From: an uncultured Syntrophomonadaceae bacterium
GTDB taxonomy: Bacteria > Bacillota > Dethiobacteria > DTU022
NCBI GenBank assembly: GCA_964389365.1
Contig: CAYMDO010000002.1
Span: forward strand, 19,268-83,267
Reading direction: 5' to 3'
Length of the DNA stretch: 64,000 nucleotides
This document shows, one piece after another, positions 33,922-49,785 of this stretch. Below the pieces are notes generated by a model. The model worked only from the letters and a program-made list of their open reading frames with translations. It searched no databases and had not been told where the DNA came from. How positions within the stretch are numbered: the first letter of the stretch is position 1; every line of letters begins with the position of its first letter. Made by a program: the position numbers and the translations under genes.

Positions 33922-35274
33922 GTGGTAAAAACCTTTCTAAAAAGGATTGAAGTGGTGAACCCGGGTATCAATGCATATTGTACCGTTGCAGAAGATGCAG
34001 CCCTAAAGGCGGCCGTGCTGTTGGAAAAGCAAATGAAAGCCGGGCTGACTCCCGGGCCGCTGGCTGGCGTACCGGTATCGATAAAAGATGTAACCCTGAC
34101 AAAAGGGATTAGAACCACTTTTGGCTCACTGCTTTATAAAGATTATATACCGGAAACCGACTCGCTGGTGGTGGAGCGCCTGAAGGCATCCGGGGCGATA
34201 GTTATGGGTAAAACCAATACTCCCGAGTTTGCGGCAGGCGGATCCACCTATAACGATCTATTCGGCCCTACCAGAACCCCCTGGAACAGCGCTTACAACA
34301 GCGGCGGTTCCAGCGGCGGCTCTGCGGCTGCAGTGGCGGCCGGACTCTGTGCGCTGGCCGAGGGCAATGATCTGGGCGGTTCACTGCGGATCCCGGCCAG
34401 TTTTTGCGGCGTGGTGGGCATGAGGCCGTCGCCGGGCCGGATTCCCGTCTATCCCAACGACCTCTACTGGGATACGATGTCACTCGAAGGCCCGATGGCC
34501 CGCAGCGTTGATGATTTAGCGCTAATGTTTGATGTGATGTCGGGGCCGGACATGCGCAGCCCGGTGGCTTTTATGCCGAACGAGGCAAGTTTTTTCGACA
34601 GCATCAGGAAGGGTGCCGGCAGCAGGCGCAATTTTAGGGTGGCCTGGAGCGATAACTTAAATTTAACGCCGGTTGATCATGAAGTTCTTGATGTTGCCAA
34701 AAGATCGGTCAAGGTGTTCGAACAGTTTGGGTGCACGGTAACCGAGGATTGCCCCGATTTCAGCGGTTTGCAGGAAACGGCGGCAGTTTTGCGCGGGGTC
34801 CGTTATGCTGCCCTCTACCAGGCCGAACTTGACAAACCGCAGTTTTTGGAACTGGTGAACCCCAACATTATCAGCAACGCCAGGCAGGGCCTTGCGCTTA
34901 CTGCAGCAGCTATTGCCAAAGCCGATCAGCACCGGTCGCAGCTCTGGCAGCAGATGCTGGGCTTCTTCACGCAGTACGACCTGATCGCCCTGCCCACCGT
35001 GCCGGTTAAACCTTTCCCGGCAGCTACAGCTTACCCCACCGAGATAAACGGCAGGGAAATGAAAAGCTATATCGACTGGATTATGCTGACCTACGCTTTT
35101 TCTGTGACCGGGCTGCCGGCAATCAGTATCCCCTGCGGTTTAACCAAAGACGGTTTCCCGGTAGGCCTGCAGATTGCCGGTAAGCCGGGAGGCGAGCGCG
35201 AGCTGTTGATAGCAGCTGCCTGTTTCGAAAAAAACAGCTCCTGGCAGGAGCGCAGGCCGCCAATAAATATTTAG
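33922..35274 (+). CDS. amidase (amidase-signature family; possible N-terminal frameshift)
   Basis: GGSSGGSAAAVA signature. Conserved N-terminal residues (LAAHEIADLVTAGKVSPTEV) continue upstream of GTG 33922 in frame, but the only ATG (33858) is in the +1 frame. Confidence 0.7.
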   Translation: MVKTFLKRIEVVNPGINAYCTVAEDAALKAAVLLEKQMKAGLTPGPLAGVPVSIKDVTLTKGIRTTFGSLLYKDYIPETDSLVVERLKASGAIVMGKTNTPEFAAGGSTYNDLFGPTRTPWNSAYNSGGSSGGSAAAVAAGLCALAEGNDLGGSLRIPASFCGVVGMRPSPGRIPVYPNDLYWDTMSLEGPMARSVDDLALMFDVMSGPDMRSPVAFMPNEASFFDSIRKGAGSRRNFRVAWSDNLNLTPVDHEVLDVAKRSVKVFEQFGCTVTEDCPDFSGLQETAAVLRGVRYAALYQAELDKPQFLELVNPNIISNARQGLALTAAAIAKADQHRSQLWQQMLGFFTQYDLIALPTVPVKPFPAATAYPTEINGREMKSYIDWIMLTYAFSVTGLPAISIPCGLTKDGFPVGLQIAGKPGGERELLIAAACFEKNSSWQERRPPINI

Positions 35275-35849
35275 GCGCTTCCCTCTAGGCCCAGAGCGGC
35301 TGCTTCGGCCCGCATGGCGTTGATTGTTTCCTGGATTACGTCATCAAGGCTCATCCCCAGCATGGCGGCGCCTTCTTCGATAATGCTGCGATCGACTCCG
35401 GCGGCAAAGTTTTTATTTTTATACTTTTTCTTTACCGAGCTTAATTCCAGGTCTAGGATGCTTTTACCGGGCCGCATCAGGATCGTGGCAACGATCAAAC
35501 CAGTCAGTTCATCTGTAGTGTACAGCACCTTTTCCATTGTTTCCTCCGGCTTAACTTTAGTGCAAATTTTCCAGCCATGGCTGATCACTGCCCGGATGTA
35601 ATCATCCGGCCAACCCTCTTCAGCCAAAATTGCTTCTGTTTTACGGCAGTGTTCTTCGGGGTACTGCTCGTAATCCAGGTCGTGAATTAAACCGATAACA
35701 CGCCATTTTTCCGGGTCTGCCTCGCCGAATTTGCGGGCAAAATAAGCCATAACCGCTTCCATGGCCAGGGCATGTTTGATCAGGGCGTCGCTCTGGTTAT
35801 ATTTTTTCAGTAAAGCCAGTGCTTCTTCGTGGGTTGGTTTCTTATCCAT
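35271..35849 (-). CDS. HD/HDIG-domain phosphohydrolase
   Basis: 192 aa; H..HD motif (GLIHDLDYEQ). Confidence 0.65.
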   Translation of the reverse strand: MDKKPTHEEALALLKKYNQSDALIKHALAMEAVMAYFARKFGEADPEKWRVIGLIHDLDYEQYPEEHCRKTEAILAEEGWPDDYIRAVISHGWKICTKVKPEETMEKVLYTTDELTGLIVATILMRPGKSILDLELSSVKKKYKNKNFAAGVDRSIIEEGAAMLGMSLDDVIQETINAMRAEAAALGLEGSA

Positions 35850-38585: not shown

Positions 38586-39413
38586 ATGCTTAAGGAATAT
38601 TACAGGCTGGGCCGGCCAATAAACGCCCTGGCCGGGGTGTTGGCAGTATTTGTCAGTGCCTATGCAGCCGGGCCGTTGTCCTGGTGGCCGGTGATCGCAG
38701 CGTCGCTGACGGTATTGCTGATTACAGTTTCCACCAACGCATGGAACGATTACGTAGATATTGAAATTGACCGCATCAACAAACCCGGGCGGCCGCTGCC
38801 GTCCGGAAAGATCAGCCCGAAAGGGGCCCTGGCATTTTCATTAATTGGGACTGCTATTTCCCTGCTGATTGCCACTTTTATTAACCTGCCGGCTTTTTTA
38901 ATTGCAATCGGGGCCAACATTTTGCTTTACCTTTATTCATGGAAGCTAAAGTGCACAGTTTTATGGGGCAATATTACTGTTGCTTTGATCATCGGCCTCT
39001 GTTTCATATTTGGCGGAGTGGCAGCCGGTAACATTAAACCGACACTGATGCTGGCCGTTACCGTTTTTTTGGCGATGATGGGCCGTGAAATATTAAAGAC
39101 AATGGCTGATTACCGGGGAGATCTTGAGCAGCAGTGCAGAACCATATCTACCGGATGGGGCAAAGCGTCGGCCCGTCGTTACACAATCGTGTTTTTAACC
39201 CTGGCAAAGGTCATGATGCTGGTCACCTATTTTGTAGAAGATTATAAGCCCGCTTATCTGTACCTGGTTATTTTCGGCCTCTACCCGATCCTGACCTATA
39301 TTGCTATAAAGGCTAAAAGCGATGCTGACGGTCATGCCCTGGAGAACAACAGCACTCTTATGAAGTACAGCTTTTTTATCTGGTTTTTGGCAGTTGTGCT
39401 GGGAGCGGCTTAA
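38586..39413 (+). CDS. UbiA-family aromatic/isoprenoid prenyltransferase
   Basis: NDYVDIEIDRINKPGRPLPSG (NDxxDxxxD) motif; 8-9 TM helices. Strong RBS, ATG at 38586. The ORF's longer upstream extension is judged non-coding. Confidence 0.75.
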   Translation: MLKEYYRLGRPINALAGVLAVFVSAYAAGPLSWWPVIAASLTVLLITVSTNAWNDYVDIEIDRINKPGRPLPSGKISPKGALAFSLIGTAISLLIATFINLPAFLIAIGANILLYLYSWKLKCTVLWGNITVALIIGLCFIFGGVAAGNIKPTLMLAVTVFLAMMGREILKTMADYRGDLEQQCRTISTGWGKASARRYTIVFLTLAKVMMLVTYFVEDYKPAYLYLVIFGLYPILTYIAIKAKSDADGHALENNSTLMKYSFFIWFLAVVLGAA

Positions 39414-40192
39414 CCGAGAAGCGAGAGCAGGTAAATAACCATTGTGGTTCCGATCGGCACAGTGAGGTCGTCAATTGTTGAAGGTGACAGCAGTTCGGTT
39501 ACCGTACCGACGCCGGCGGTAATAAAAGAATAGGCCACGACAGCCTGAAAAGTCAGCTTGTGCTGGTTGATTGGATTGAGCAGGCCAAAAAAATAGAATG
39601 CCGCAAAACAGAGGATGAATGCTGATATAAAAAAGGTCAGGGAACCTTCCAAAGTACGGCCTGTGCCGGTGTGGGCGATCCTGATTTTAAACCTGCCGTA
39701 TTTCTTGCCGACCACCGAGGCAAAAGTATCGCTGATGATCATGATCAGGATGCCGCATATCGGGAAGTAGAGCCGGTCGGGGGCAAAAAGGACAAAAACG
39801 GCGATCAATAAAGTGATCGAGACGCTGTAAAAAAAGGGGCCTTCCAGGCGGCCGGTCCGTTCCTCGGCTTCTTCACCGATCGATTCATACAGCTCCTGCA
39901 GCTGTTTAACCGAGCTGTCGCGGGAACAAAAAAAGACCACGATAGCCAGGCTCAGGGAAATAAATACTGCAAAAAGAGGCAAGATAAAGAAAGGAACAAC
40001 CAGAACGATCAACCCGGTGAAGAGGTGCACTATTTTACGGGCGTGAAATTTAGAAATAATATTTTTCTTTTTCAGGAATACAGGGATGGCAATAGTCAGA
40101 ATTACATAGCCGTAAGCGATGCCGATTAAAACCAGGTCGTACAAAAAATCCGATAGCGTGTAGCCGGCAATGATCATCAGCAGTTTCTGCAT
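39410..40192 (-). CDS. polyprenol/phytol/dolichol-kinase-like membrane protein (CTP-transferase superfamily)
   Basis: 260 aa polytopic. C-terminal ISDTFASVVGKKYGRFKIRIAHTGTGRTLEGSLTFF resembles the kinase motif of VTE5/SEC59-type polyprenol kinases. Confidence 0.5.
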   Translation of the reverse strand: MQKLLMIIAGYTLSDFLYDLVLIGIAYGYVILTIAIPVFLKKKNIISKFHARKIVHLFTGLIVLVVPFFILPLFAVFISLSLAIVVFFCSRDSSVKQLQELYESIGEEAEERTGRLEGPFFYSVSITLLIAVFVLFAPDRLYFPICGILIMIISDTFASVVGKKYGRFKIRIAHTGTGRTLEGSLTFFISAFILCFAAFYFFGLLNPINQHKLTFQAVVAYSFITAGVGTVTELLSPSTIDDLTVPIGTTMVIYLLSLLG

Positions 40193-40356
40193 TAGCTAGG
40201 CATCACTCTTTCGCTTTACCTTGGGTCACACTAACAAACAGCTAAAGTATAGTTAAGAAAATGGGGCCTGTCAAGGCATGAAGCTTCAGTATCAGGTCCT
40301 GATCGTCCCGCAAGAAAGTTGCAGGCGGGCCTGTCCCGCCATTGTTTTACCCAGGT

Positions 40357-41571
40357 TTAAAGCTTGCCGGTAAAAGTTCTGGCCAGGGGATTTTTATCAT
40401 TTAAATGATGGACAAAAAGATCTACCAGGCCGGGAAAGCGTAATAGAGTATTGGTTAAATAAAATGTCCTTCTTAAATTTTTTAGCAGCTTTTCCCGGCA
40501 TAACAGCTCGTAACGGCCGAGGGTATTTAATGAAAAATCATTGCTGTTCAAGGCCTGGTGAGCAATTTCTGCCGCAATCTGCCCCGAGAGCAGGCTGCGG
40601 TTGATCCCGCCTCCCGTCAGCGGGCTTATAAAACCGCCGGCATCGCCTACCAGCAGCGCTCCGGGAAAGGCATATTGCAGGCCCTTTTGGGAACCAAAAT
40701 TTAACGGCCAGCTGGCGATGTTTTCAAGCTTGAAGCCCGTTTTTAACCGGGGCTTGATTAACGGCATATTTAAAAAGAGGTTGAGCATCTGCTGTAAATT
40801 GTGTGACCCGCTGTGATAATGATCGAGGCGCATCCCGAGGCCGATATTGGCCCTGCTGCCGGAAAGCGGAAAAATCCAGGCGTAACCGGGCAGGATACTG
40901 CCATAGATGTAGAATTCCACTTCATGCGGGTAAAGCTCAATATTTTCAGCATAAGCCCGTATGGCGACAGCACGGTGGTTCCTGGCATGTCGTTCTCCGT
41001 TTCTCAGGGCGCGGGCCAGGGTGGAGGCAACACCGTCCGCACCGATAACAACTTTTGCTCTTATTTCGTTATTCTTTTGCCCATTGCTCACTTGCACCCC
41101 GGTTACCCGGCCGTTTTCAATGATCGGCTTTTCAGCAGTTGCCCGGTGAAACTTGGCTCCTGCCCGGATTGCTTCTTCGCGGATCAGGTTGTCAAAGTGA
41201 AAGCGTGGCGCTACGGCGGCGCTGAAACCACCGGGGCTTTTGGCCAGCGGGTAACTTCTCTCGCAGCCTTTAGGAGAAATCAGCCGCATGCGTTTCAGGG
41301 AATACATTTTGTCGCTTTTACCGGCAGCATCAAGTGCTTCCCCCATCCCGGCGCCGTAAAGCAATTCAATCGCTTTAGCCGGCAGGGCATCGCCGCAGGT
41401 TTTGTCACGTGGAAAGTCGTCTTTATCCAGCAGGATTACATCGTGGTTTTTTTCTGCTAAAAGCGCTGCCGTAAAAGCCCCGGCCGGTCCCGAGCCGACA
41501 ACCACTACTTCAGCATGCAGTTCTTTCACCATTGCATCAAACCTCACCATTACCTGATTTTTGGTCGCCAA
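40357..41571 (-). CDS. geranylgeranyl reductase family FAD-dependent oxidoreductase
   Basis: VVVVGSGPAGAFTA dinucleotide motif and PRDKTCGDALP, as in ChlP/GGR enzymes. The true start is probably M14 (41532). Confidence 0.75.
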   Translation of the reverse strand: MATKNQVMVRFDAMVKELHAEVVVVGSGPAGAFTAALLAEKNHDVILLDKDDFPRDKTCGDALPAKAIELLYGAGMGEALDAAGKSDKMYSLKRMRLISPKGCERSYPLAKSPGGFSAAVAPRFHFDNLIREEAIRAGAKFHRATAEKPIIENGRVTGVQVSNGQKNNEIRAKVVIGADGVASTLARALRNGERHARNHRAVAIRAYAENIELYPHEVEFYIYGSILPGYAWIFPLSGSRANIGLGMRLDHYHSGSHNLQQMLNLFLNMPLIKPRLKTGFKLENIASWPLNFGSQKGLQYAFPGALLVGDAGGFISPLTGGGINRSLLSGQIAAEIAHQALNSNDFSLNTLGRYELLCREKLLKNLRRTFYLTNTLLRFPGLVDLFVHHLNDKNPLARTFTGKL

Positions 41572-41583
41572 ACAGGTTAGCTG

Positions 41584-42993
41584 TTAATTGTTATCAAAAC
41601 GCTGCCGGCTTAAAGTGCCCCAGCCACCTCGTTTAAAAGTAAAATCAATCAGTCCCAGAAAACGCCACCAGCAGTGAATTTGCCGGTAAAAGAAATTCTC
41701 GGCAATCGCAAATGCAAATAGAACCAGAACATCTTTCAGCTGCGGATAACTGCGGTAATAAATCTCTTCCACCAGCAGGGCCGCTGTGGAAAGCAGGACA
41801 CCCAAAAGAACAGCCACACTGAAGAAGAGCAATACAAAGGGTAGATTAAGCAGTCCGCTGGCCAGTGCATAGATTAAAATAAGGTAACCGCCAATCTCAA
41901 TCACCGGACCCAGAAATTCGAAGAAAAGAAAGAAAGGATAGCTGATCATCCCTGCCGTTCCATACTGGGGATTTAAAAACATCTCAAAGTTATTAAATAA
42001 ACTTTCTGCAAGCCCGCGCTGCCAGCGGCGACGTTGGGTTTTCAGGCCACCATAGGTTTCGGGCACCTGGGTCCAGCATACCGGATCGGGCACAAACTGA
42101 ACCCGGTAGGGCCGTTTAATTTTTTTCATGGTCCGCTGCAGGCGGAGCACCAGTTCCATATCTTCACCGATTGTGTTGGTCAGGTAACCACCGGCAGTAA
42201 TTACCGCTTTCCTTCTAAACACGCTAAAAGCCCCTGACAAAATTAACAAACCGCCAATTAAAGACCAGCCTGCTCTGCCGAAGAGGAAAGCCCTCAAGTA
42301 CTCCACGATCTGGAACCGCACCCAGAATCGCCCGGAAAGTCTTACTGCCTTAACCATGCCTCCCTCGACAGAAGCTCCATTGGCGGCCCTGATTGTGCCG
42401 CCGGCAGCAATTACCCTCCAATCTTTTGCAAACAGGTCGGTTATTTTTAGCAGGGCTTCGCTGTCAACCAGCGAATCTGAGTCAATATTACAAAAAAGTG
42501 GGTACTGCGCTATATTAATGCCGGCATTTAGCGCATCAGATTTGCCCCCGTTTTCCTTATCGATAACCACCAGGTTTGGGTAATAGGCAGAGCGATAGAT
42601 CTTGTTAATCTTTTTTGTTTTTAGTTCTGCCCGGTAATTATCAAAACCGGGTTCAAGTGAAAATGATTCTTTTAAAACTTCTATTGTCTGATCTGTTGAT
42701 CCATCGCTGGCCACGATTACTTCAAAATCAGGATAGCGCAGAGAGAGTGTTGAACGAACCGTTTCAACGATGGTCGCTTCTTCATTATAGGCCGGGATGA
42801 TAATCGATATCGGTTTAAAGAAACTGGATTTAAAAGATAAATCACGACTGGCAATTTTTTCAGCCAGGCTGATATTTTTTATACCAAAAAAAGATATTAC
42901 CACCAGCACCAGGTAGCCCAGATTAATAGCCAGAAAATAAAGGATGATAAAGACGCTGTAGAAGATAATAAATATCTGACCACAACTCATCAG
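41584..42993 (-). CDS. processive family-2 glycosyltransferase (PgaC/cellulose-synthase-like exopolysaccharide synthase)
   Basis: DGSTDQT (DxD region) and the QRRRWQRG (QxxRW) motif, with N- and C-terminal TM helices. The start at 42993 overlaps the upstream gene's stop (ATGA). Confidence 0.8.
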   Translation of the reverse strand: MMSCGQIFIIFYSVFIILYFLAINLGYLVLVVISFFGIKNISLAEKIASRDLSFKSSFFKPISIIIPAYNEEATIVETVRSTLSLRYPDFEVIVASDGSTDQTIEVLKESFSLEPGFDNYRAELKTKKINKIYRSAYYPNLVVIDKENGGKSDALNAGINIAQYPLFCNIDSDSLVDSEALLKITDLFAKDWRVIAAGGTIRAANGASVEGGMVKAVRLSGRFWVRFQIVEYLRAFLFGRAGWSLIGGLLILSGAFSVFRRKAVITAGGYLTNTIGEDMELVLRLQRTMKKIKRPYRVQFVPDPVCWTQVPETYGGLKTQRRRWQRGLAESLFNNFEMFLNPQYGTAGMISYPFFLFFEFLGPVIEIGGYLILIYALASGLLNLPFVLLFFSVAVLLGVLLSTAALLVEEIYYRSYPQLKDVLVLFAFAIAENFFYRQIHCWWRFLGLIDFTFKRGGWGTLSRQRFDNN

Positions 42994-44135
42994 CTTACCT
43001 CTTTTGAGGCCAGCACGTAAGCGGCGATTGTGGCGGCCTTGGTTTTTGAGCCATCGGCTTTCTGAGTAAGTAAAGAAGATCCGGTACTGCCGGCAGCTAT
43101 CAGGGCCTTGGCTGCGTGGTAGCGAACCCACCAATTCTCGTCATTTAATAACTGGTCAAGCATCGGCATCATATTGTCTGCCGGGGCCAATTTAGTAGTC
43201 TGGATCGCAAAACTTCTGATCACCCAATCCTCGTTTTCCAGGTAAAGTCCGGGATTATATGAGGCCGGCAGTTTGCCTATGCGCAAAAATGCCTTCATGA
43301 TGTGAATAATAGTCTCGTTTTCCGCCCCTGCCAAAAGACAGTTCAACACCGAAAGAGCTTCAGTATAGCGGTAGTGGCCAAGCAGATCGATCAAAATCAT
43401 GATCATTAAACTCAGATCAATTTCGGCAGCTTTAGGCTTCGCTATCAGGTATCTAAAAGCGCCCTTTTTCTTGCGGGAAGCTATAAATTTCACCGGGAGT
43501 TCCCCCCGGCTGTACTTATCAAGCAGAGCCGTAATAGGCCGGCAGACTTCAATACTGAAGCGGGAGAGAATTTCTGTAATCCCTTCGTAGGTAAAATAAG
43601 AGTTACTGACCAGGGCTTTTAAAACAGGGCTGAAGACACGGGGATTATTTGAAACTGCCAACCCCTGGGCGGCGGCTAAGACAAGCAGGTGGTTTTTACT
43701 TTTCAGCATTCTAATCCGGGTTGAGATCGATTGATAGCAGCGAAAGTCACCCAGCATTTTTGCTGCTGTTGCCCGATCATAAATATTCCTTTTTAGAAGC
43801 CTTTCCCGGTAGTAGCCGATCATGCTGATCTCCCGGCAGAGGGCTTTGGTTGCTTCAAAATCCCGGCCATCGAGCATCTCTAAGTACGGGGTAAAAAATT
43901 TCCTGAAAAAATGGTAATTTTTATTCTTCAGAAACGGTTTTATTATATTGTTAAGCTCAGACTTGCCGAGGATATAATCGATAAAAAGCTTTTCCCATTT
44001 TTTTTCACAGAGGCGATACTGTTTTTCCTCGCGTGCATTTTTTATGCGTAAGATCACTATAATTGTCAGAAATGAAATAATTACAGCGCTGACCAAGTAT
44101 ATAATATAGAGCAGGATAGTTAAATAAGGATCCAT
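42990..44135 (-). CDS. single-pass membrane protein with cytoplasmic HEAT/PBS-lyase-type repeats
   Basis: N-terminal TM helix and a C-terminal NDENWWVRYHAAKALIAAG HEAT-like repeat. Confidence 0.5.
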   Translation of the reverse strand: MDPYLTILLYIIYLVSAVIISFLTIIVILRIKNAREEKQYRLCEKKWEKLFIDYILGKSELNNIIKPFLKNKNYHFFRKFFTPYLEMLDGRDFEATKALCREISMIGYYRERLLKRNIYDRATAAKMLGDFRCYQSISTRIRMLKSKNHLLVLAAAQGLAVSNNPRVFSPVLKALVSNSYFTYEGITEILSRFSIEVCRPITALLDKYSRGELPVKFIASRKKKGAFRYLIAKPKAAEIDLSLMIMILIDLLGHYRYTEALSVLNCLLAGAENETIIHIMKAFLRIGKLPASYNPGLYLENEDWVIRSFAIQTTKLAPADNMMPMLDQLLNDENWWVRYHAAKALIAAGSTGSSLLTQKADGSKTKAATIAAYVLASKEVS

Positions 44136-44141
44136 TGATAT

Positions 44142-44510
44142 TTACTCCCCGATTATTTTGTTGATCCGCGAAACCATATCATCGAGCTCAAAAGGCTTTA
44201 CTATATAATCGCTGGCTCCGGAAAGCAAAGAGTTACGCAAATCACTTTCCTTGTTTTTAACCGAAAAGATGATGATTGGTATAACCCGGCCGGCATTCCT
44301 GAGACGTCTTAGGATCTGGTTCCCGTCAAGATGCGGCATCATCATGTTTAGCAGCCCAAGATCAGCTTTTCTCGCTAAAAGCTCTTGAAGGGCCGCCTCT
44401 CCGTCGAAAGTTTGTATGACCCGGTAACCTTCCTGCTTCAGGCGGGCAGAAATCAGGTTGTTGATTCTTTTTTCGTCTTCAGCGATCAAAACAGTTTTAG
44501 ATTCTGACAT
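44142..44510 (-). CDS. stand-alone response-regulator receiver (REC) protein
   Basis: VLIAEDE ... conserved Asp in LLNMMMPHLDG ... K in IIFSVK. No output domain. Confidence 0.75.
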   Translation of the reverse strand: MSESKTVLIAEDEKRINNLISARLKQEGYRVIQTFDGEAALQELLARKADLGLLNMMMPHLDGNQILRRLRNAGRVIPIIIFSVKNKESDLRNSLLSGASDYIVKPFELDDMVSRINKIIGE

Positions 44511-44517
44511 CATTAGC

Positions 44518-45657
44518 TTAATCACCTGCCGTATCATGCAGGATGTTGGACAGCGCCGGTTCATACCACTGTAAGTAAAAACGGAATTCGATGGGCAATC
44601 CCGGCAGGTAAGACATAAACCGCTGGATCTTTGCGCTTCCTGTCAACCGCGGTGTAAGCAGGGCAGGCAATTGATCGGTAAAATCTCCGGCGAAGTAAAA
44701 GCGTTTTGCTTCACCGGGAGGGGTATAGCTGATCATGGCCGGGAAACGCTCGGGAAGGCTGCGCCTATCCAGATCTGCGCGGGCCTGATCCGGCAAAGGT
44801 ATTTCATAGTAGGCCAAAACTTCCGCTCCAGGAAGAGGTTCCAACACCTCTACCCAATAGAGATAGGGAATGTTTTGGGAAGTTCTACCTTTAAAGGGGT
44901 GGGCTGTGTAGTTGATTACCGGCCATGGTCCGGTTAGCTCTTCACCGGAAACAACAACAAGGTCGCTGCGCCAGCTGAAAGAGGGCACTTCCTCGCGCAC
45001 GAAAACCATGCCCGGACCGCGAAGGTCCCACTCGAGTCCGTAGATCTTTTCATATAACTGCTTTAGCCAGAAAGCCGCGTCATTTAGGTCGCTGTAATAA
45101 CGCCCCAGCCATCCGGTGTAGCTGACAGCAAATACAGCCTGCAGCCTTAATGAAGCATCCGGATCAAGATAGGTAGGGTAGCCGAAGATGTTATGTTCAC
45201 CGATGATCCGTTTATTTTCCTTTGTTGAAAAATATTCTATTGCTTCTACCTCGTTTAGGTCAAAGCCGCCGTAGAGCAGCTTGATATTTTGTATTTCAAA
45301 AGGCAGCTGCGCCTCGTAAAGATCAAAGCCCCCGGGATAGTCATAGATCCCGTAACTGTCTGCCAGGTAGAGCAGGTCGGCATCTGCCAGCTCTGAAAGA
45401 GTCAGGGTTTGCTTCTCACCGGTTGCCGGATGGAAGCCTAAATAATCATGGTGGAAATTGTAGAAATCACCGCCGGGTTTACTAAAACGCCTGTGTTCGG
45501 CGACCCAGAATATGGCACGGTGCTCGCGAAAGGTGGTATCGGGAACCGTTTTGTTAACAACAAGCAACTTAATTTCCTGCCTGGGGCTAAGTGGCCAATG
45601 CACCAGCCAGCTTCCGGACAGCAATATAATGATTAGCACCAGGTGCCAGCGTTTCAT
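44518..45657 (-). CDS. membrane-anchored hypothetical protein (379 aa)
   Basis: N-terminal signal-anchor MKRWHLVLIIILLSGSWLV. No recognised domain. Confidence 0.5.
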   Translation of the reverse strand: MKRWHLVLIIILLSGSWLVHWPLSPRQEIKLLVVNKTVPDTTFREHRAIFWVAEHRRFSKPGGDFYNFHHDYLGFHPATGEKQTLTLSELADADLLYLADSYGIYDYPGGFDLYEAQLPFEIQNIKLLYGGFDLNEVEAIEYFSTKENKRIIGEHNIFGYPTYLDPDASLRLQAVFAVSYTGWLGRYYSDLNDAAFWLKQLYEKIYGLEWDLRGPGMVFVREEVPSFSWRSDLVVVSGEELTGPWPVINYTAHPFKGRTSQNIPYLYWVEVLEPLPGAEVLAYYEIPLPDQARADLDRRSLPERFPAMISYTPPGEAKRFYFAGDFTDQLPALLTPRLTGSAKIQRFMSYLPGLPIEFRFYLQWYEPALSNILHDTAGD

Positions 45658-45679
45658 TAGAGGTTTCCTTTCGTTCGGC

Positions 45680-47947
45680 TCACGGAATTGTCAGTAAGTA
45701 ATCGGCTATCAGGTCATAGCTTCTTTTCAGGCGGAACTGAAAGAGCGGCTCTTCCCATCGATTCCAGTTAAAAGCTGTAATCCCGGTTTTAAATTGGTCA
45801 CCGCGTCGCGGGAAAAAGTCAAGCACGGCAGGCCATGAAAGATCATTGCTGTTTGCTGATTGTTCGCCCTGATAGTAAGTAAGGACGTAAAAATTAAAGC
45901 CGCTACCAGTTTCAATACTTAATTGATCCCTGGCCGGCAGATCATTATAATTACGGAGGTCTCTAATAACTGAACCCCCTGAAGGATCGGCAATATTCAG
46001 GAGCATCCAGGGCAGGCGGATTAAAATCCGACCATCAGGCAAGGATTCCCAGTGAGCAAGTGAGTTGTAATCTTCAGCCTCAGGATTAAAGTTACCGTAA
46101 GTGAGCGCACTCTCGTTAGCGAAAAGGGCAGGGAAATAAAGGCCTTCCAAAGTAGTTCGTTCACGGTTTACAAGGGTATTAATCGTTTCGAAATCAGCTA
46201 ATGATGAAGATTGGGGATTAAAGTTGAGTAGCCCCCTGTTATAGGAGGGAATGGCAACGAGAAGCGCTTCCCCGGGAGTTTTTAGATCAATTAGAAACTG
46301 GACCGGGCCTGGAAGTTCAGGCAGCCCGGAGAAGGGAAGCTTAAATTCACCGGCATCAGGTATTCCGCTGTTGATCCCTATAGCCAGCCCAACGATTTCC
46401 CAGGGGAACGTACCGCTCTGCCTGAATGTCGCCTGGTCTAAGGTGATTGCCAGGTAAAGAAAAGCTTCGTCGGCACCTGCTTCAAGCTTTTTAATCATCC
46501 CGAAAGTGCTTTCATGATCATCAGGAGGTGCAAATGCTTTATTATCAAAAGCTAACTGCCAGTCGCTTAATAGTTCTTCCAGGGGGCGGGCCAGGGGTTC
46601 AACGGCCAGTATCCCGTAATTTTGTTCGGGGCACATCGTGTTTTGCCAGAGAACCTGTCTTTCCCAGGGAACCATAAAAGGTTCAGTGTTCCAGGTTTTC
46701 TTAGCCCATTCATCGCTCCACTCAAAGATCAGCCCGCCGGCGTAGCCTTCATCAATGATGGAGCGCATCATCCGAACAACCATCGTGCCCTGATCGACTT
46801 CGCTCAAACCACCATGATTTAACCCTTCAGGGTTGAAATGAGCGGTGTTAAGAGAAGTGGATATGCCAAACTCGGCTATGAGCGCCGGGTAAGGGGGGTG
46901 GATAGCCATAAACTGATTAAGGTAACCCTTGTAACGAAAAACACCCTCATCGTCCCTAAAAGAGACAAAAGCCGGTTCATTGTTCATTAAATCAGGATAA
47001 TTTGGATAGACATGATAGGCGCCGAAAAACCCTGCATAATTGGATGGTCCGGAGATAAAAATATTTGGATCAACAACCTCCCGGTCATTATAGCCTGGCG
47101 TTCCGTCTGCTTCCCATTCGGTCAGGTGTGTAAGAGGATCCAGGGTAGGCCAACTGACAAAACCTACCGGGTATTGACGTTCATACTGAGAATCACAGTA
47201 AGCGGCAGCATAATTAGTCATGTCTGCCAGCCAGACTTCGGTTGCCGAAGCACCATTTCTGGTTTGCACGAAGTCGCCCTGAAAAAGAGTAAGGTCAGGA
47301 TTAGCCTTATTGGTTGCTGCAACTTCTTCCGGTTCCAGTTCGCGACCGATCAGCAGTCCCAGCAGGAAAGGAGAAACATCAACAGAGTATTTACCATAAG
47401 CCCGGTATGGTCTGGCTGGAATATCGGCATTGCCGTGGAGGGCATCAATAACCAGTTTTATCTCCTGCCGGTATTCTTCCGCATAATCCTGGTTATAAAA
47501 ATTCAGGTCAGGCACTTCATCATCAGGCCAAATCTCCTGGAAAAGCCAAAGAGTTTCATTTTCGGGATTTCTGTTATATTCTGCCAGGACGGCGTAAAAA
47601 GCGGGGTCAAGCAGGGTGTAAATTCTGATCGTATTGGCATTCATAGCGGCTATTTCTTCGATCCAGCGGGCGTATAATTCACGATCTGCCGGAAAATCAG
47701 TATACCAGCGACCGGGCAACGAGGTGCCGATGTTGACGCCTTTAACGATTAATTCCTGCCACTGATGCCCGTTGTAAATTTCAAAATATCTTTCGGCGGT
47801 TCGGGCAGAAATACAGCGGTTTCCAACAGTGGCGCATGAATTTGAAGCCTGGTTTTCCCCGTTGGTGCAGCCGGTCGGCAGGCTTAACGCCAATAATAGA
47901 GAACTTATTAAGATTACAGGGAGTAAAACAGCTCTATTAATGAGCAA
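45680..47947 (-). CDS. large lipoprotein (755 aa) with N-terminal TIM-barrel glycoside-hydrolase-like region
   Basis: Lipobox-like LSLPTGC. GVNIGTSLPGRWYTDF...NANTIRIYT is reminiscent of GH-A clan glycosidases. The C-terminal ~350 aa are unassigned. Confidence 0.5.
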   Translation of the reverse strand: MLINRAVLLPVILISSLLLALSLPTGCTNGENQASNSCATVGNRCISARTAERYFEIYNGHQWQELIVKGVNIGTSLPGRWYTDFPADRELYARWIEEIAAMNANTIRIYTLLDPAFYAVLAEYNRNPENETLWLFQEIWPDDEVPDLNFYNQDYAEEYRQEIKLVIDALHGNADIPARPYRAYGKYSVDVSPFLLGLLIGRELEPEEVAATNKANPDLTLFQGDFVQTRNGASATEVWLADMTNYAAAYCDSQYERQYPVGFVSWPTLDPLTHLTEWEADGTPGYNDREVVDPNIFISGPSNYAGFFGAYHVYPNYPDLMNNEPAFVSFRDDEGVFRYKGYLNQFMAIHPPYPALIAEFGISTSLNTAHFNPEGLNHGGLSEVDQGTMVVRMMRSIIDEGYAGGLIFEWSDEWAKKTWNTEPFMVPWERQVLWQNTMCPEQNYGILAVEPLARPLEELLSDWQLAFDNKAFAPPDDHESTFGMIKKLEAGADEAFLYLAITLDQATFRQSGTFPWEIVGLAIGINSGIPDAGEFKLPFSGLPELPGPVQFLIDLKTPGEALLVAIPSYNRGLLNFNPQSSSLADFETINTLVNRERTTLEGLYFPALFANESALTYGNFNPEAEDYNSLAHWESLPDGRILIRLPWMLLNIADPSGGSVIRDLRNYNDLPARDQLSIETGSGFNFYVLTYYQGEQSANSNDLSWPAVLDFFPRRGDQFKTGITAFNWNRWEEPLFQFRLKRSYDLIADYLLTIP

Positions 47948-48102: not shown

Positions 48103-49197
48103 GTGAGTAGTCGCAGGCAGTTAAAGCTTACGTTGATGATCCTAATTGTCGTTGCCGGACTGCTGCTTTTTCTATCTGTTTCCGGTTGGTTATTTAATCC
48201 CGGGGCAGTGGAAAAATGCCTTCCGGCAGGGGATCCGCTGGTTATCGTCTGGGAGCTGGCTAATCCAGGCACGGACTATAACCTGATTGGAAACCTTGGT
48301 CCGGTTCAGGTGGTTGCGCCGACCTGGTTTCATCTGGCGGATGGCACGGGGACGGTACGCAGTGATTTTGACCTGAATTACTTGCTGTGGGCCCGTGAGC
48401 GGGGGTACCAGGTTTGGGCGTTGGTTACCAATTCATTTGACCCGGATCTGACAGCAGAACTGCTAACCGATGCCCAAAACCGGCAGCATTTTGCCGGGGA
48501 GATAGTATCACTGGCGGTAAAGCACAATCTAGGAGGGTTAAATATAGATTTTGAAAACTTTCATTACAGTTACCGTGACCACTTTACCGCTTTTATCACC
48601 GGGCTGGCAGAGCTGTGCCGCGCCGAAAACCTGGTTCTATCGGTAGATGTGACTATGCCATCCGGCTCGGAATACTGGAGCATGGGCTATGACCGGGCTG
48701 CGCTGGCTGCGGAAGCCGATTATATTATTTTGATGGCCTACGATGAGCACTGGGCCTCTTCACCTGTTGCCGGCCCGGTTGCCTCGCTGCCCTGGGTTGA
48801 AAATGGGCTACAACAGCTGTTAAATGAGGTCCCTCCCAGCAAGCTGGTTTTAGGAGTTCCCTTCTATACCAGGCTTTGGGCCATTGATGAAACCGGCACT
48901 GCGCCAGAGGTGGTAAATAGCTGGTCATATTCGATGATGCGGGCTGCTGAACTGATAGCTGAAAACGAGGCGACAACAACCTTTGATCAGCAGGCCGGTC
49001 AGCATGTGGCAGTTTATGAGAAGGAAGGGCTGACTTACAAAATGTGGCTTGAGGATCAGGCTTCTATGTTAAGCCGCCTCGAACTGGTGAAAAAATATAA
49101 CCTGGCGGGTTTGGCCGGTTGGCGTCGCGGCCTGGAGACGCCTGATATCTGGGATCTGATGGAGAGCTTCTTCGGTTATTCCGAATCCGGTGAATAA
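48103..49197 (+). CDS. glycoside hydrolase family 18-like protein, membrane anchored
   Basis: N-terminal TM segment and GH18 catalytic-type motif GGLNIDFENF (DxxDxDxE-like). Confidence 0.65.
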   Translation: MSSRRQLKLTLMILIVVAGLLLFLSVSGWLFNPGAVEKCLPAGDPLVIVWELANPGTDYNLIGNLGPVQVVAPTWFHLADGTGTVRSDFDLNYLLWARERGYQVWALVTNSFDPDLTAELLTDAQNRQHFAGEIVSLAVKHNLGGLNIDFENFHYSYRDHFTAFITGLAELCRAENLVLSVDVTMPSGSEYWSMGYDRAALAAEADYIILMAYDEHWASSPVAGPVASLPWVENGLQQLLNEVPPSKLVLGVPFYTRLWAIDETGTAPEVVNSWSYSMMRAAELIAENEATTTFDQQAGQHVAVYEKEGLTYKMWLEDQASMLSRLELVKKYNLAGLAGWRRGLETPDIWDLMESFFGYSESGE

Positions 49198-49284: not shown

Positions 49285-49785
49285 TCAGGTGCCGAGCATG
49301 CCCCGCACGATCGAGCCGCTTATTTGCAGGCTCATCAGCAGGAAAAAAGTGTTCTTAACTGCCGGGGTGAAGATAAACAGAATATGTTTCAACAGCTTAA
49401 ATAAACCAAGTACGATGTAAATTATGCCTGCTACCAGTAAGGCTGATATTATACTTCCGCGGATCTCGGCCAGTGGTTTTCCAATCTGGGGGGCAACTGA
49501 GCCGATAATGATCAGCACGTTATACCACATGGCCCCGATGCCTTCAAAGACCGGCAGGCGGTGGCCGAAGTACAACTGGATGATCGAGAAGAGGCCGCAA
49601 AAGAAGAAGGTGCGCTGGATAAAACAGCTGATCTCAAGCTGATCCAGCCCGAGCCCGGTGCCGACCACGCTTGGAATTACGGCAAGGACAGTCAGTGAAA
49701 AAATAACCCACTGCAGGCTGTAAACTGCTGTTTTACTGTGCGGCGGTATATCTTCAGCTTGATATAGTAGTATTTCCTTGCTCAA
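49285..49785 (-). pseudogene. NCS2 (xanthine/uracil permease) family N-terminal fragment, 166 aa
   Basis: TM-rich segment with NCS2-like N-terminal helices. The ORF stops after ~166 aa, whereas the family is ~430 aa. Confidence 0.4.

What the first reader, a model, noticed from the sequence alone, without database searches (positions are those of the whole stretch)
38586..42993. Isoprenoid-lipid gene cluster: UbiA prenyltransferase, polyprenol-kinase-like CTP-transferase, geranylgeranyl reductase and a processive GT2
A GGR-family reductase, a VTE5/SEC59-like polyprenol kinase and a QxxRW glycosyltransferase are co-transcribed on the minus strand, convergent with a UbiA prenyltransferase. This combination is what is needed to make an alpha- or fully saturated polyprenyl phosphate (dolichol-like) glycosyl carrier, phytylated quinone/tocopherol-like compounds, or archaeal-type saturated isoprenoid lipids. 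All of these are unusual for a non-phototrophic Firmicute.
Basis: inference. Interest (0 to 1): 0.75.

Follow-up and report, generated by a model that had tools for sequence, protein, structure and literature searches.

The report
Archaeal-type isoprenoid lipid genes in a Firmicute
A soil or sediment Firmicute carries a small gene module for isoprenoid (archaeal-style) lipids whose kinase-like gene was apparently borrowed from Asgard archaea, where the same gene leads the core membrane-lipid operon; the sugar-polymer gene next to it is an unrelated neighbour.

Summary
All four genes exist as described. UbiA (38586-39413, +) is closest to archaeal DGGGP synthase, not to MenA, UbiA, ChlG or HPT. 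The reductase (40357-41532, -) is a true GGR-family member. The 260-aa protein ("K260", 39410-40192, -) is a divergent relative of the Sec59/VTE5 CTP-dependent polyprenol kinases, not of CdsA.

The proposed unit is wrong in one respect. The QxxRW GT2 belongs to a separate five-gene synthase-type exopolysaccharide operon, which is absent from a close relative that keeps GGR-K260-UbiA. K260 also has its own conserved promoter.

- **Bacterial neighbour:** the conserved neighbour of K260 is the convergent UbiA, adjacent in 24 of 29 loci whose flanks are otherwise unrelated.
- **Asgard context:** K260 is 51-63% identical to a gene that heads a K260-GGR-GGGPS-DGGGPS cluster in 51 of 53 Asgard-archaeal loci.
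- **Phylogeny:** the bacterial copies form one clade inside or beside the Asgard diversity.

Best reading: an isoprenoid ether-lipid-type module consisting of a prenyltransferase, an Asgard-derived lipid or prenol kinase and a saturase. The substrates are unproven, and no GGGPS was found nearby. Novelty: a new variant of known kinds, of moderate to high interest.

The parts
38586..39413 (+). UbiA-superfamily prenyltransferase, DGGGPS-like (275 aa)
   Evidence: Pfam UbiA 3e-40. The best NCBIfam hits are PRK12884 (206.7 bits), PRK12882 (177) and PRK12883 (148), all DGGGPS-type and all below their cut-offs. The best solved relative is M. jannaschii DGGGPS 6M31 at 3.7e-30, against chlorophyll synthase at 5e-10. 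The equivalents of Mj N62, D66, D70, Y125, K130, D183 and D187 are invariant. Homologues of 275-278 aa fix the start at 38586.
39410..40192 (-). K260: divergent Sec59/VTE5-family CTP-dependent polyprenol or lipid-alcohol kinase homologue, of likely Asgard-archaeal origin (260 aa, about 8 TM helices)
40246..40274 (-). Sigma-70-type promoter of K260 (TTGACA-17-TATACT)
   Evidence: 11 of 12 consensus matches. The -35 and -10 boxes are invariant in the window, L005, L001 and L008, while the surrounding spacer diverges in sequence and length.
40324..40340 (.). GC-rich hairpin just downstream of the GGR stop codon, a possible terminator of the upstream operon
   Evidence: GGCGGG-CCTGT-CCCGCC, with 6 GC pairs. 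It is not conserved in L001, so its function is uncertain.
40357..41532 (-). Geranylgeranyl reductase family flavoprotein (391 aa; the ORF extends to a TTG at 41571)
   Evidence: TIGR02032 scores 195.6 bits, above the 158.8 cut-off, and Pfam GGR_cat also hits. The best solved relative is the T. acidophilum digeranylgeranylglycerophospholipid reductase 3OZ2 at 2.3e-36. The motifs GSGPAG, Cys46, YAWIFP, LVGD and RFHFD can be read in the sequence (motif list from PMC10821996). The NCBI cluster representative is 391 aa.
41584..42993 (-). Processive GT2 synthase (469 aa, QRRRW). It is the last gene of the neighbouring EPS operon and not part of the lipid module.
   Evidence: Glycos_transf_2, Glyco_tranf_2_3 and Chitin_synth_2 all hit. 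PgaC_IcaA scores 144.7 bits, below the 422 cut-off. The C-terminal region matches BcsA. The gene is absent from L005 and from the other 25 bacterial loci.
42990..47947 (-). Rest of the EPS operon: HEAT-repeat membrane protein (42990-44135), receiver-only response regulator (44142-44513), 379-aa unknown (44518-45657) and 755-aa lipoprotein-like unknown (45680-47947). A promoter-like site lies at 48014-47985.
   Evidence: The same five-gene order is seen in L001, L006 and L008.

Best explanation
The real functional unit is a small isoprenoid-lipid module, not the four-gene set proposed. It consists of a DGGGPS-like UbiA prenyltransferase and, convergent to it, K260. K260 is a divergent member of the CTP-dependent polyprenol-kinase family (Sec59, VTE5, FOLK, PolK). 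In this lineage a GGR-family reductase sits just upstream.

**Inferred mechanism**
- K260 uses CTP to phosphorylate an isoprenoid alcohol. The substrate could be free geranylgeraniol or phytol on a salvage route towards the prenyl donor, or a dephosphorylated isoprenoid glyceryl ether.
- The UbiA enzyme transfers a prenyl chain from a prenyl diphosphate to the hydroxyl of a glycerol-phosphate-type lipid acceptor, as DGGGPS does.
- GGR then saturates the chains.
- The product would be an archaeal-type, partly or fully saturated, isoprenoid ether lipid or a close analogue.

**Origin of K260**
K260 most likely entered bacteria once from Asgard archaea, where its orthologue is the first gene of the K260-GGR-GGGPS-DGGGPS cluster. 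It then spread among anaerobic-sediment and soda-lake bacteria as a two-gene cassette with UbiA.

**Status of the GT2**
The adjacent QxxRW GT2 is the last gene of an independent synthase-type exopolysaccharide operon that lies between a GH18 gene and GGR in this lineage only.

**Shown versus inferred**
- Shown: family assignments, conserved gene pairing, the Asgard relationship, and the separability of the GT2 operon.
- Inferred: substrates, the order of reactions, the product, and the direction of transfer.
For: **UbiA is DGGGPS-like**
- NCBIfam DGGGPS-type models are the best hits, at 3.9e-61 to 4e-43, against ChlG 5e-23, HPT 1e-13 and MenA 8e-7.
- PDB 6M31 (DGGGPS) scores 3.7e-30, against ChlG 5e-10.
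- The DIEIDRINKPxRPLPSGKI block is nearly identical to MjDGGGPS, and all catalytic motif residues are conserved.

**K260 is a kinase-family protein**
- Sec59 is hit at E 6e-12, 1e-14 and 1e-10 by three methods.
- The aligned motifs are ARKIVH and DTFASVVGKKYG...RTLEGS.
- The RKxxH clamp is invariant (PMC10849223).
- 14 of the 150 best family representatives are fusions with a DUF92/VTE6 (prenyl-phosphate kinase family) domain.
- No CdsA or CarS sequence match appears at E up to 10.

**GGR is a true family member**
- It scores above the TIGR02032 cut-off and its closest solved relative is an archaeal lipid reductase.

**Functional linkage**
- Convergent UbiA is adjacent to K260 in 24 of 29 bacterial loci, in otherwise unrelated contexts.
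- GGR lies within 10 kb in 5-6 loci, including distant ones.

**Link to ether lipids**
- Among 53 Asgard-type loci, GGR follows K260 in 51, PcrB/GGGPS follows in 50, and UbiA follows in 41 of 46 with room.
- More distant K260-like genes lie in a PcrB-UbiA-K arrangement (L089) and a K-PcrB arrangement (L090).

**Horizontal transfer**
- The window protein is 51-63% identical to Asgard proteins, the same range as Asgard proteins show among themselves.
- In 200 NJ bootstraps, bacteria are monophyletic in 189 and Asgard are monophyletic to their exclusion in only 36.
- UbiA and GGR are only 29% and 27.5% identical to the Asgard cluster genes, so K260 alone was exchanged.

**The GT2 is separable**
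- L005 (K260 88% identical) has GH18 divergent from GGR-K260-UbiA with no EPS operon.
- K260 has its own conserved promoter.
Against: - No GGGPS/PcrB, G1P dehydrogenase, GGPP synthase or second (DUF92/VTE6-type) kinase was found in the 64-kb window or in the 10-kb flanks of 29 bacterial loci. Neither the acceptor for a DGGGPS-like enzyme nor the route from prenyl phosphate to prenyl diphosphate is accounted for.
- UbiA is below every NCBIfam equivalog cut-off.
- K260 has no Pfam hit, and its substrate cannot be read from the sequence.
- It shares a fold with the cytidylyltransferases CdsA and CarS.
- GGR is adjacent only in a minority of bacterial loci.
- The phylogeny is neighbour-joining only, and nesting inside Asgard has moderate support (123 of 200 bootstraps).
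- Taxon labels come from MAG record titles and may include binning errors.
- No lipid data exist for these organisms.
Confidence: 0.55

Rival explanations
1. K260 is not a kinase but a non-canonical CDP-archaeol synthase (a CarS analogue). It would use CTP to activate the DGGGP-type product of the neighbouring UbiA enzyme. This would explain why it travels with DGGGPS and GGGPS genes in pathway order.
Against: The sequence signal points to the kinase branch. Sec59 is hit at E 1e-14, whereas the K260 profile finds no CdsA or CarS chain even at E up to 10. The RKxxH clamp of prenol kinases is invariant. No HGG...DR.D CdsA signature is present in the sequence (the signature is from my own knowledge of PROSITE). 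Family relatives are fused to VTE6-type kinases. Bacteria already have CdsA, which can make CDP-archaeol (statement in PMC7852524), so a bacterial cassette would not need this function.
Confidence: 0.15
2. GGR plus a polyprenol or dolichol kinase make a saturated polyprenyl-phosphate glycosyl carrier that serves the co-transcribed GT2 exopolysaccharide synthase. K260 would act as an undecaprenol or dolichol kinase.
For: K260 is homologous to dolichol kinase Sec59. GGR lies about 50 bp downstream of the GT2 with no predicted terminator between them. Archaeal GGR paralogues saturate dolichol (PMC5088576).
Against: The EPS operon lies within 10 kb of K260 in only 3 of 29 bacterial loci and is absent in L005, which keeps GGR-K260-UbiA. 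K260 has its own conserved promoter. The GT2 is a QxxRW membrane synthase with BcsA, PgaC and chitin-synthase affinities. By established knowledge, that class does not use lipid-linked intermediates. The conserved partners of K260 are UbiA, GGGPS and GGR, not glycosyltransferases.
Confidence: 0.08
3. This is a phytol-salvage or phytylation toolkit like VTE5 with HPT or ChlG and ChlP in plants and cyanobacteria. K260 would phosphorylate phytol from degraded chlorophyll, GGR would supply phytyl chains, and UbiA would prenylate an aromatic head group (a quinone or tocopherol-like compound).
For: JGI names homologues 'phytol kinase'. The wider family includes Chlorobium fusions with DUF92/VTE6. 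The trio of kinase, UbiA enzyme and GGR mirrors the plant logic (PMC10849223 for the roles of VTE5 and VTE6).
Against: UbiA scores 51 bits against HPT and about 29 bits against MenA, versus 207 bits for the DGGGPS-type model. The closest structure is DGGGPS. No aromatic head-group, methyltransferase or cyclase genes lie in the window flanks that were annotated. The orthologue context in Asgard is GGGPS and DGGGPS, not quinone genes.
Confidence: 0.07
4. The genes are merely adjacent: ordinary, unrelated housekeeping isoprenoid genes with no shared function.
For: No GGGPS or other pathway gene lies nearby. GGR adjacency is lineage-restricted.
Against: The K260-UbiA pair is retained in 24 of 29 species-level loci whose flanking genes are completely different. 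The identities of the two proteins fall in parallel across loci. The K260 family sits beside GGGPS or DGGGPS in at least three independent arrangements.
Confidence: 0.03

Closest known systems
Archaeal core ether-lipid enzymes: DGGGPS (UbiA superfamily, e.g. M. jannaschii 6M31) and digeranylgeranylglycerophospholipid reductase (GGR, e.g. T. acidophilum 3OZ2)
   Same: UbiA and GGR each have these enzymes as their best solved relative. The catalytic motifs of both are intact. GGR passes the TIGR02032 cut-off.
   Different: The host is bacterial. UbiA is below all DGGGPS equivalog cut-offs and only 29% identical to Asgard DGGGPS. No GGGPS or G1PDH was found nearby. The acceptor substrate is unknown.
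CTP-dependent polyprenol kinases: yeast Sec59 / human DOLK, plant VTE5 and FOLK, Plasmodium PolK
   Same: There is significant homology to Sec59 with shared motifs. The RKxxH clamp and about 8 TM helices match the PfPolK model (PMC10849223).
   Different: Pfam CTP_transf_1 does not detect K260. Similarity covers only about 160 residues at 29-33% identity. There is a clade-specific acidic loop (SSRDSSVKQLxELYESIGEEAEE). The genomic partners are ether-lipid genes, not glycosylation or tocopherol genes.
Asgard-archaeal K260-GGR-GGGPS-DGGGPS gene cluster (seen here in Promethearchaeota, Thor-, Hermod-, Hod- and Odinarchaeota MAGs)
   Same: K260 is an orthologue, at 51-63% identity, of the first gene of this cluster.
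   Different: In bacteria only K260 is of this origin. GGGPS is missing from the neighbourhood. UbiA is convergent rather than co-directional, and both UbiA and GGR come from different lineages.
Bacterial archaeal-type lipid genes (GGGPS plus DGGGPS of Cloacimonetes and the FCB group; PcrB in Bacillus; Halanaerobium)
   Same: These are bacterial possession of DGGGPS-like and GGR-like genes, with earlier evidence for archaea-to-Firmicutes transfer of lipid genes (PMC6431249, PMC7852524).
   Different: Those cases pair GGGPS with DGGGPS. Here the conserved partner is a Sec59-family kinase homologue. The papers found by the ten full-text searches run here do not describe it, and no paper holds both 'Asgard' and 'dolichol kinase'.
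CdsA / CarS membrane cytidylyltransferases
   Different: No sequence-profile match appears at E up to 10. The CdsA signature is absent.
Synthase-dependent exopolysaccharide systems (PgaC/IcaA, BcsA, chitin synthase / NodC), for the GT2 only
   Same: The GT2 fold, QxxRW motif and C-terminal TM region match BcsA.
   Different: The GT2 is far below the PgaC_IcaA cut-off (144.7 against 422.3 bits). Its accessory genes (HEAT-repeat protein, receiver domain, and 379-aa and 755-aa unknowns) match no described system.

Membership tests
DGGGPS (digeranylgeranylglyceryl phosphate synthase, UbiA superfamily) | UbiA-superfamily membrane prenyltransferase domain | tested here: met
   PF01040 at 3.1e-40, covering residues 20-248.
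DGGGPS (digeranylgeranylglyceryl phosphate synthase, UbiA superfamily) | Catalytic motifs N62, D66-x3-D70, Y125...K130 and D183-x3-D187 (Mj numbering; PMC9385802) | tested here: met
   N54, D58, D62, Y117, K122, D175 and D179 are invariant in 30 bacterial and 42 Asgard sequences. Mj D180 is Thr in bacteria and Gly in Asgard, so that position is not diagnostic.
DGGGPS (digeranylgeranylglyceryl phosphate synthase, UbiA superfamily) | Score above a curated DGGGPS equivalog cut-off | tested here: not met
   PRK12882 scores 177.4 against a cut-off of 296, PRK12883 148 against 353, and PRK12884 ('prenyltransferase') 206.7 against 269.
DGGGPS (digeranylgeranylglyceryl phosphate synthase, UbiA superfamily) | Closer to DGGGPS than to the quinone, chlorophyll, tocopherol or haem branches | tested here: met
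   DGGGPS-type models score 4e-61 to 4e-43, against ChlG 5e-23, HPT 1e-13, CtaB 7e-11 and MenA 8e-7. PDB 6M31 scores 3.7e-30 against ChlG 5e-10.
DGGGPS (digeranylgeranylglyceryl phosphate synthase, UbiA superfamily) | A GGGPS (PcrB family) in the genome to supply the GGGP acceptor | tested here: inconclusive
   None was found in the 64-kb window or in the flanks of the 29 bacterial loci. The rest of the genome could not be searched.
DGGGPS (digeranylgeranylglyceryl phosphate synthase, UbiA superfamily) | Transfers geranylgeranyl from GGPP to GGGP | not testable with these tools
   An enzyme assay is needed.
CTP-dependent polyprenol kinase (Sec59/DOLK, VTE5, FOLK, PolK) | Significant sequence homology to an experimentally characterised member | tested here: met
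   The profile hits S. cerevisiae Sec59 at E 6.3e-12. hhalign gives probability 98.3% and E 1.1e-14 over 158 columns. tblastn of Sec59 against the window gives 1.1e-10.
CTP-dependent polyprenol kinase (Sec59/DOLK, VTE5, FOLK, PolK) | Arg-Lys-x-x-His clamp, and the D-x-x-A-S-x-x-G-K-x-x-G ... (K/R)-T-x-E-G-(S/T) block | tested here: met
   R52, K53, H56, D155, G166, R179 and G183 are invariant in 22 sequences, while E182 is conserved in at least 90%. They align to SRKLWH and GDSLASIIGKRYG...KTLEGT of Sec59. The clamp is described for PfPolK in PMC10849223.
CTP-dependent polyprenol kinase (Sec59/DOLK, VTE5, FOLK, PolK) | Polytopic membrane protein with about 8 TM helices | tested here: met
   The AF2 model has pLDDT 85.3 and pTM 0.79, with eight long helices.
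CTP-dependent polyprenol kinase (Sec59/DOLK, VTE5, FOLK, PolK) | Detected by Pfam CTP_transf_1 (PF01148), which covers the superfamily | tested here: not met
   There is no hit even at E up to 10. More distant relatives give only sub-threshold hits of 17-20 bits.
CTP-dependent polyprenol kinase (Sec59/DOLK, VTE5, FOLK, PolK) | CTP-dependent phosphorylation of a prenol or polyprenol | not testable with these tools
   This needs an assay comparing [gamma-32P]CTP with [alpha-32P]CTP.
CdsA / CarS cytidylyltransferases | Sequence-profile similarity to CdsA or CarS, and the CdsA signature (…KD…HGG..DR.D) | tested here: not met
   hmmsearch of the A1 profile against all PDB chains gives 0 hits at E up to 10. 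No HGG or DRxD block is present in the sequence.
CdsA / CarS cytidylyltransferases | Shared fold | tested here: met
Geranylgeranyl reductase family (TIGR02032) | Score above the family cut-off, and the GGR catalytic domain | tested here: met
   195.6 bits against a cut-off of 158.8, and PF22578 GGR_cat at 5e-8.
Geranylgeranyl reductase family (TIGR02032) | Motifs GxGxxG, catalytic Cys (about position 47), YxWxFP, LxGD and RxxFD (PMC10821996) | tested here: met
   GSGPAG, C46 (391-aa numbering), YAWIFP, LVGD and RFHFD can be read in the translation.
Geranylgeranyl reductase family (TIGR02032) | Specific substrate class (DGGGPL reductase, MenJ or ChlP equivalogs) | tested here: not met
   MenJ scores 136 against a cut-off of 700, the DGGGPL reductases 122-124 against 580-780, and BchP/ChlP 119 against 343. 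The substrate is unresolved.
Processive membrane GT2 synthases (PgaC/IcaA, BcsA, chitin synthase class) | GT2 domain with QxxRW and a C-terminal TM bundle | tested here: met
   QRRRW is present, several GT2 Pfams and Chitin_synth_2 hit, and there is a BcsA match at residues 247-406.
Processive membrane GT2 synthases (PgaC/IcaA, BcsA, chitin synthase class) | Equivalog-level match to a synthase of known polymer | tested here: not met
   PgaC_IcaA scores 144.7 against a cut-off of 422.3, CelA 49.9 against 699, and NodC 43.5 against 550.

The most novel reading that the evidence does not exclude
K260 may define an unrecognised, dedicated enzyme of isoprenoid glyceryl-ether lipid metabolism. Three candidate roles fit: the archaeal geranylgeraniol kinase whose gene a 2022 review still treats as uncharacterised, an archaeol or DGGG kinase that recycles core lipids, or a non-canonical CDP-archaeol synthase.

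It is conserved as the lead gene of the Asgard-archaeal GGR-GGGPS-DGGGPS operon. It appears to have been exported once to bacteria, where it travels as a cassette with a DGGGPS-like prenyltransferase.

If so, anaerobic Firmicutes and other sediment bacteria could make or salvage archaeal-type ether lipids. That would give a natural mixed-membrane system built partly from an Asgard gene.
Probability: 0.4. Interest if true: 0.85.

Novelty: new variant of a known kind. Interest (0 to 1): 0.66.

Why it matters
How strict the 'lipid divide' between archaea and bacteria is, and how eukaryotes came to have bacterial-type lipids on an Asgard-related host, are open questions.

This locus points to a highly conserved fourth gene in the Asgard ether-lipid cluster that none of the literature searches run here turned up. 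The same gene was taken up by bacteria and kept next to a DGGGPS-like enzyme.

This gives two directly testable proposals:
- A candidate gene exists for an unassigned step of archaeal lipid metabolism (prenol or core-lipid phosphorylation, or lipid activation).
- A set of uncultured Firmicutes and other sediment bacteria may carry isoprenoid ether lipids.

The work also removes a misleading link: the neighbouring exopolysaccharide synthase is not part of the lipid module.

Tried and rejected
**Searches that gave nothing**
- Pfam and NCBIfam on K260 gave nothing, even at E up to 10.
- The PDB sequence-profile search with the K260 alignment gave nothing.
- PADLOC on the three module proteins gave nothing, so there is no defence-system link.
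- tblastn of K260 against PLSDB plasmids found no match, so there is no evidence that the cassette is plasmid-borne.
- tblastn for PcrB/GGGPS and for a DUF92/VTE6 domain in the window and in all loci found none near the bacterial genes.
- Pfam annotation of 20 flanking window genes found no further isoprenoid genes.
- A look for canonical CarS among small hydrophobic ORFs within 10 kb of the Asgard clusters found none, which is uninformative.

**Tools or records that were unavailable**
- The AFDB Foldseek library was unavailable.
- Exact look-ups of the window's K260 and GGR products were not on record, and the UbiA look-up returned only a 3-kb Logan contig, so the source organism could not be named.

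**Literature**
- No paper holds both 'Asgard' and 'dolichol kinase', and a search on polyprenol or prenol kinase with archaeal ether lipids found nothing relevant.
- Villanueva et al. 2017 is not held, so whether Asgard genomes have canonical CarS remains unchecked.

**Ideas considered and dropped**
- The Thr at the position of MjDGGGPS D180 was considered as a marker of altered specificity. It was rejected because Asgard DGGGPS has Gly at that position.
- Co-transfer of the whole Asgard cluster into bacteria was rejected, because UbiA and GGR are only 27-29% identical to the Asgard genes.

Full report
**1. What is in the sequence**

ORF listing and family scans confirm the four genes of the finding.

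- **UbiA-family protein.** It is encoded at 38586-39413 (+). The ORF runs upstream to 38373, but homologues of 275-278 aa fix the start at 38586.
- **K260.** This 260-aa polytopic membrane protein lies convergent to UbiA at 39410-40192 (-), and the two stop codons overlap by 4 bp.
- **GGR-family flavoprotein.** It lies upstream of K260 on the minus strand. The ORF is 40357-41571, and the likely ATG start at 41532 gives the 391 aa of the NCBI representative.
- **GT2.** This 469-aa protein with QRRRW is encoded at 41584-42993.
- **Further minus-strand genes.** The strand continues with a HEAT-repeat membrane protein (42990-44135), a receiver-only response regulator, a 379-aa unknown and a 755-aa lipoprotein-like unknown, up to 47947. 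A GH18 gene (48103-49197) is divergent from them.

**2. Family assignments**

*UbiA*
- The best NCBIfam models are the archaeal DGGGPS-type families: PRK12884 (206.7 bits), PRK12882 (177) and PRK12883 (148).
- These are far ahead of ChlG (82), HPT (51), MqnP (42), CtaB (42) and MenA (29), but all are under their equivalog cut-offs.
- The closest solved structure is M. jannaschii DGGGPS (6M31, 3.7e-30), against chlorophyll synthase at 5e-10.
- The DIEIDRINKPxRPLPSGKI block is almost identical to that of MjDGGGPS.
- The residues listed as catalytic for MjDGGGPS (PMC9385802) are invariant in 30 bacterial and 42 Asgard sequences.

*GGR*
- It passes the TIGR02032 cut-off (195.6 against 158.8 bits).
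- Its best solved relative is the Thermoplasma lipid reductase 3OZ2 (2.3e-36).
- It shows the motifs GxGxxG, Cys46, YxWxFP, LxGD and RxxFD (motif list from PMC10821996).
- It is below every substrate-specific equivalog: MenJ, DGGGPL reductase and ChlP.

*K260*
- It has no Pfam or NCBIfam hit.
- An exhaustive profile search of 1.84 billion representatives found 2296 relatives. One of them is S. cerevisiae Sec59 dolichol kinase (E 6.3e-12; identity established).
- hhalign gives 98.3% probability and E 1e-14. It aligns ARKIVH with SRKLWH, and DTFASVVGKKYG...RTLEGS with GDSLASIIGKRYG...KTLEGT.
- A plain tblastn of Sec59 against the window also hits the gene (1e-10).
- The invariant R52-K53-x-x-H56 corresponds to the Arg-Lys-His clamp described for the Plasmodium prenol kinase (PMC10849223).
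- 14 of the 150 best representatives are fusions of a K260-like domain with DUF92, the VTE6 phytyl-phosphate-kinase family.
- K260 is therefore a divergent member of the kinase branch of the CTP-transferase superfamily.

**3. What travels with what**

A scan of one genome per GTDB species returned 80 loci, and look-ups of individual homologues added others. They fall into two groups.

*Bacterial loci*
- There are 29 of these. The MAGs are labelled Syntrophomonadaceae or Bacillota, many from soda-lake sediments, with a few labelled Atribacterota, Ignavibacteriales or Lentimicrobiaceae.
- The only conserved neighbour of K260 is the convergent UbiA gene, adjacent in 24 loci. It lies 8 kb away in one more (L022) and is missing in two loci with enough sequence to show it (L009 and L023).
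- The flanking genes are otherwise unrelated.
- GGR lies within 10 kb in 5-6 loci. The GT2 operon is present in only 3, all close relatives of the window.
- L005, whose K260 is 88% identical, has GH18 divergent from GGR-K260-UbiA with no EPS operon at all. The EPS operon is therefore an insertion or deletion between GH18 and GGR and is not part of the lipid module.
- Between GGR and K260 there is a GC hairpin and a TTGACA-17-TATACT promoter. The -35 and -10 boxes are invariant in four relatives, while the rest of the spacer varies in sequence and length.

*Asgard-type loci*
- There are 53 of these, with record titles naming Promethearchaeota, Thor-, Hermod-, Hod- and Odinarchaeota. One contig (L004) carries several Arf/Ras-family GTPase genes.
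- K260 is the first gene of a co-directional cluster. GGR follows in 51 loci, PcrB/GGGPS follows in 50, and DGGGPS-type UbiA follows in 41 of 46 with room.
- More distant K260-like genes (41-43% identity) also sit beside ether-lipid genes. L089 has the order PcrB-UbiA-K. L090, an apparently bacterial contig, has K-PcrB.

The K260 family is thus repeatedly tied to GGGPS and DGGGPS genes, not to glycosyltransferases or quinone genes.

**4. Origin**

- The window protein is 51-63% identical to Asgard proteins. That equals the spread among the Asgard proteins themselves, whose minimum is 50%.
- In neighbour-joining trees the bacterial sequences form one clade (189 of 200 bootstraps).
- Asgard sequences are monophyletic to the exclusion of bacteria in only 36 of 200 bootstraps. 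The bacterial clade is nested in a subset of Asgard in 123 of 200.
- The window UbiA and GGR are only 29% and 27.5% identical to the genes of the Asgard cluster.
- The simplest reading is a single transfer of K260 alone from an Asgard archaeon into bacteria, followed by spread together with a bacterial DGGGPS-like gene.
- The direction has moderate support only, because no maximum-likelihood analysis was possible.
- Coleman et al. (PMC6431249) already report bacterial homologues of archaeal lipid genes and a Thorarchaeota-to-Firmicutes transfer of G1PDH, so there is precedent.

**5. Most likely mechanism**

Shown: the family memberships, the conserved pairing, the Asgard link and the separability of the GT2.

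Inferred:
- K260 phosphorylates an isoprenoid alcohol with CTP.
- UbiA attaches a prenyl chain to a glycerol-phosphate-type lipid acceptor.
- GGR saturates the chains.
- The product is an archaeal-type isoprenoid ether lipid or an analogue.

The alcohol could be free geranylgeraniol or phytol, as salvage towards the prenyl donor. Such activities were measured in Sulfolobus, but the 2022 review PMC9385802 still treats the enzymes as uncharacterised. Alternatively it could be a dephosphorylated core lipid.

Weak points:
- No GGGPS, G1PDH, GGPP synthase or second kinase was found in the window or in any bacterial flank.
- UbiA is below the equivalog cut-offs.
- A cytidylyltransferase (CarS-like) activity for K260 cannot be excluded from sequence, since the fold is shared.

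I put the ether-lipid-module-with-kinase reading at about 0.55. The rivals are the CarS-analogue variant at 0.15, the glycosyl-carrier reading at 0.08, the phytyl-quinone reading at 0.07 and chance adjacency at 0.03.

**6. The GT2 operon**

- It is a synthase-type EPS locus of unknown polymer.
- The GT2 has PgaC/IcaA, chitin-synthase and BcsA affinities but no equivalog match.
- The 379-aa and 755-aa proteins match nothing in Pfam, NCBIfam or the PDB.
- The divergent GH18 gene, and a nearby PAS-GGDEF-HD-GYP protein (55096-57591), hint at a GlcNAc-containing, c-di-GMP-regulated polymer. This was not followed up.
- By established knowledge, such synthases need no polyprenyl-phosphate carrier. 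This removes the rationale for linking the GT2 to the kinase and the reductase.

**7. Novelty and verdict**

Each protein belongs to a known superfamily, and bacterial DGGGPS-like genes have been reported. Three things appear undescribed in the searchable literature:
- the K260 clade itself;
- its position at the head of the Asgard ether-lipid cluster;
- its transfer to bacteria as a cassette with a DGGGPS-like gene.

I rate this as a new variant of a known kind, with interest 0.66.

Noticed in passing
window 41584-47947 (-), with GH18 at 48103-49197 (+): This is a five-gene synthase-type exopolysaccharide operon: a 755-aa lipoprotein-like unknown, a 379-aa unknown, a receiver-only response regulator, a HEAT-repeat membrane protein and a QxxRW GT2. 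It is divergent from a GH18 gene. It is present in L001, L006 and L008 but precisely absent between GH18 and GGR in L005. The two large proteins match nothing in Pfam, NCBIfam or the PDB.
   Followed up: partly
L004, L032-L076, L078-L084 (Asgard-type loci), K260 match at about 10001-10750 in most: Asgard archaeal MAGs carry a strongly conserved co-directional cluster: K260-like gene, GGR, GGGPS (PcrB), DGGGPS (UbiA). GGR follows K260 in 51 of 53 loci. The first gene has no Pfam family and was not mentioned in any paper the searches returned.
   Followed up: partly
L089 51-6774: A PcrB-UbiA-K260-like cluster (43% identical to the window K260) lies directly downstream of Tn7-like transposition genes (TnsA-like N-terminal domain, TniB). 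This suggests that ether-lipid gene sets can be mobile.
   Followed up: no
L056 (DATKTW010000062.1): This contig is labelled Candidatus Nanopelagicaceae bacterium, yet it carries the complete Asgard-type K260-GGR-PcrB-UbiA cluster, with its K260 branching next to that of L055. It is probably a mis-binned archaeal contig.
   Followed up: no
window 51405-51588 (+), next to tRNA at 51195-51266: Rfam finds a group II intron D1-D4 segment (89 bits) just downstream of a tRNA gene. No ORF of 150 aa or more, and hence no reverse transcriptase, lies between 51.1 and 52.5 kb. It may be an ORF-less or degraded intron.
   Followed up: no
window 55096-57591 (-): An 831-aa PAS-GGDEF-HD-GYP (HD_5) protein, a c-di-GMP turnover enzyme, lies about 7 kb from the EPS operon. 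It may regulate that operon.
   Followed up: no
window 49285-49785 (-): This ORF covers only the N-terminal ~145 positions of the Xan_ur_permease profile (166 aa). The syntenic gene in L001 encodes 450 aa. It may be a frameshift or pseudogene, or a sequencing error.
   Followed up: no
window 39410-39413: The convergent UbiA and K260 genes overlap by 4 bp at their stop codons, leaving no room for a terminator between them. In more distant relatives the gap is typically about 40-100 bp, with a maximum of 314.
   Followed up: partly
L001 11626-12248: A VapBC (PIN plus VapB antitoxin) pair is inserted next to UbiA in L001 and L003. It was not seen at the equivalent position in the window.
   Followed up: no
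window 35271-35849 (-) and 23498-24190 (+): A 192-aa HD-domain protein recurs within 10 kb of the K260-UbiA pair in 7 bacterial loci. A DUF554 membrane protein lies near the pair in L086 and 15 kb away in the window. This is probably residual synteny, but a functional link was not excluded.
   Followed up: no
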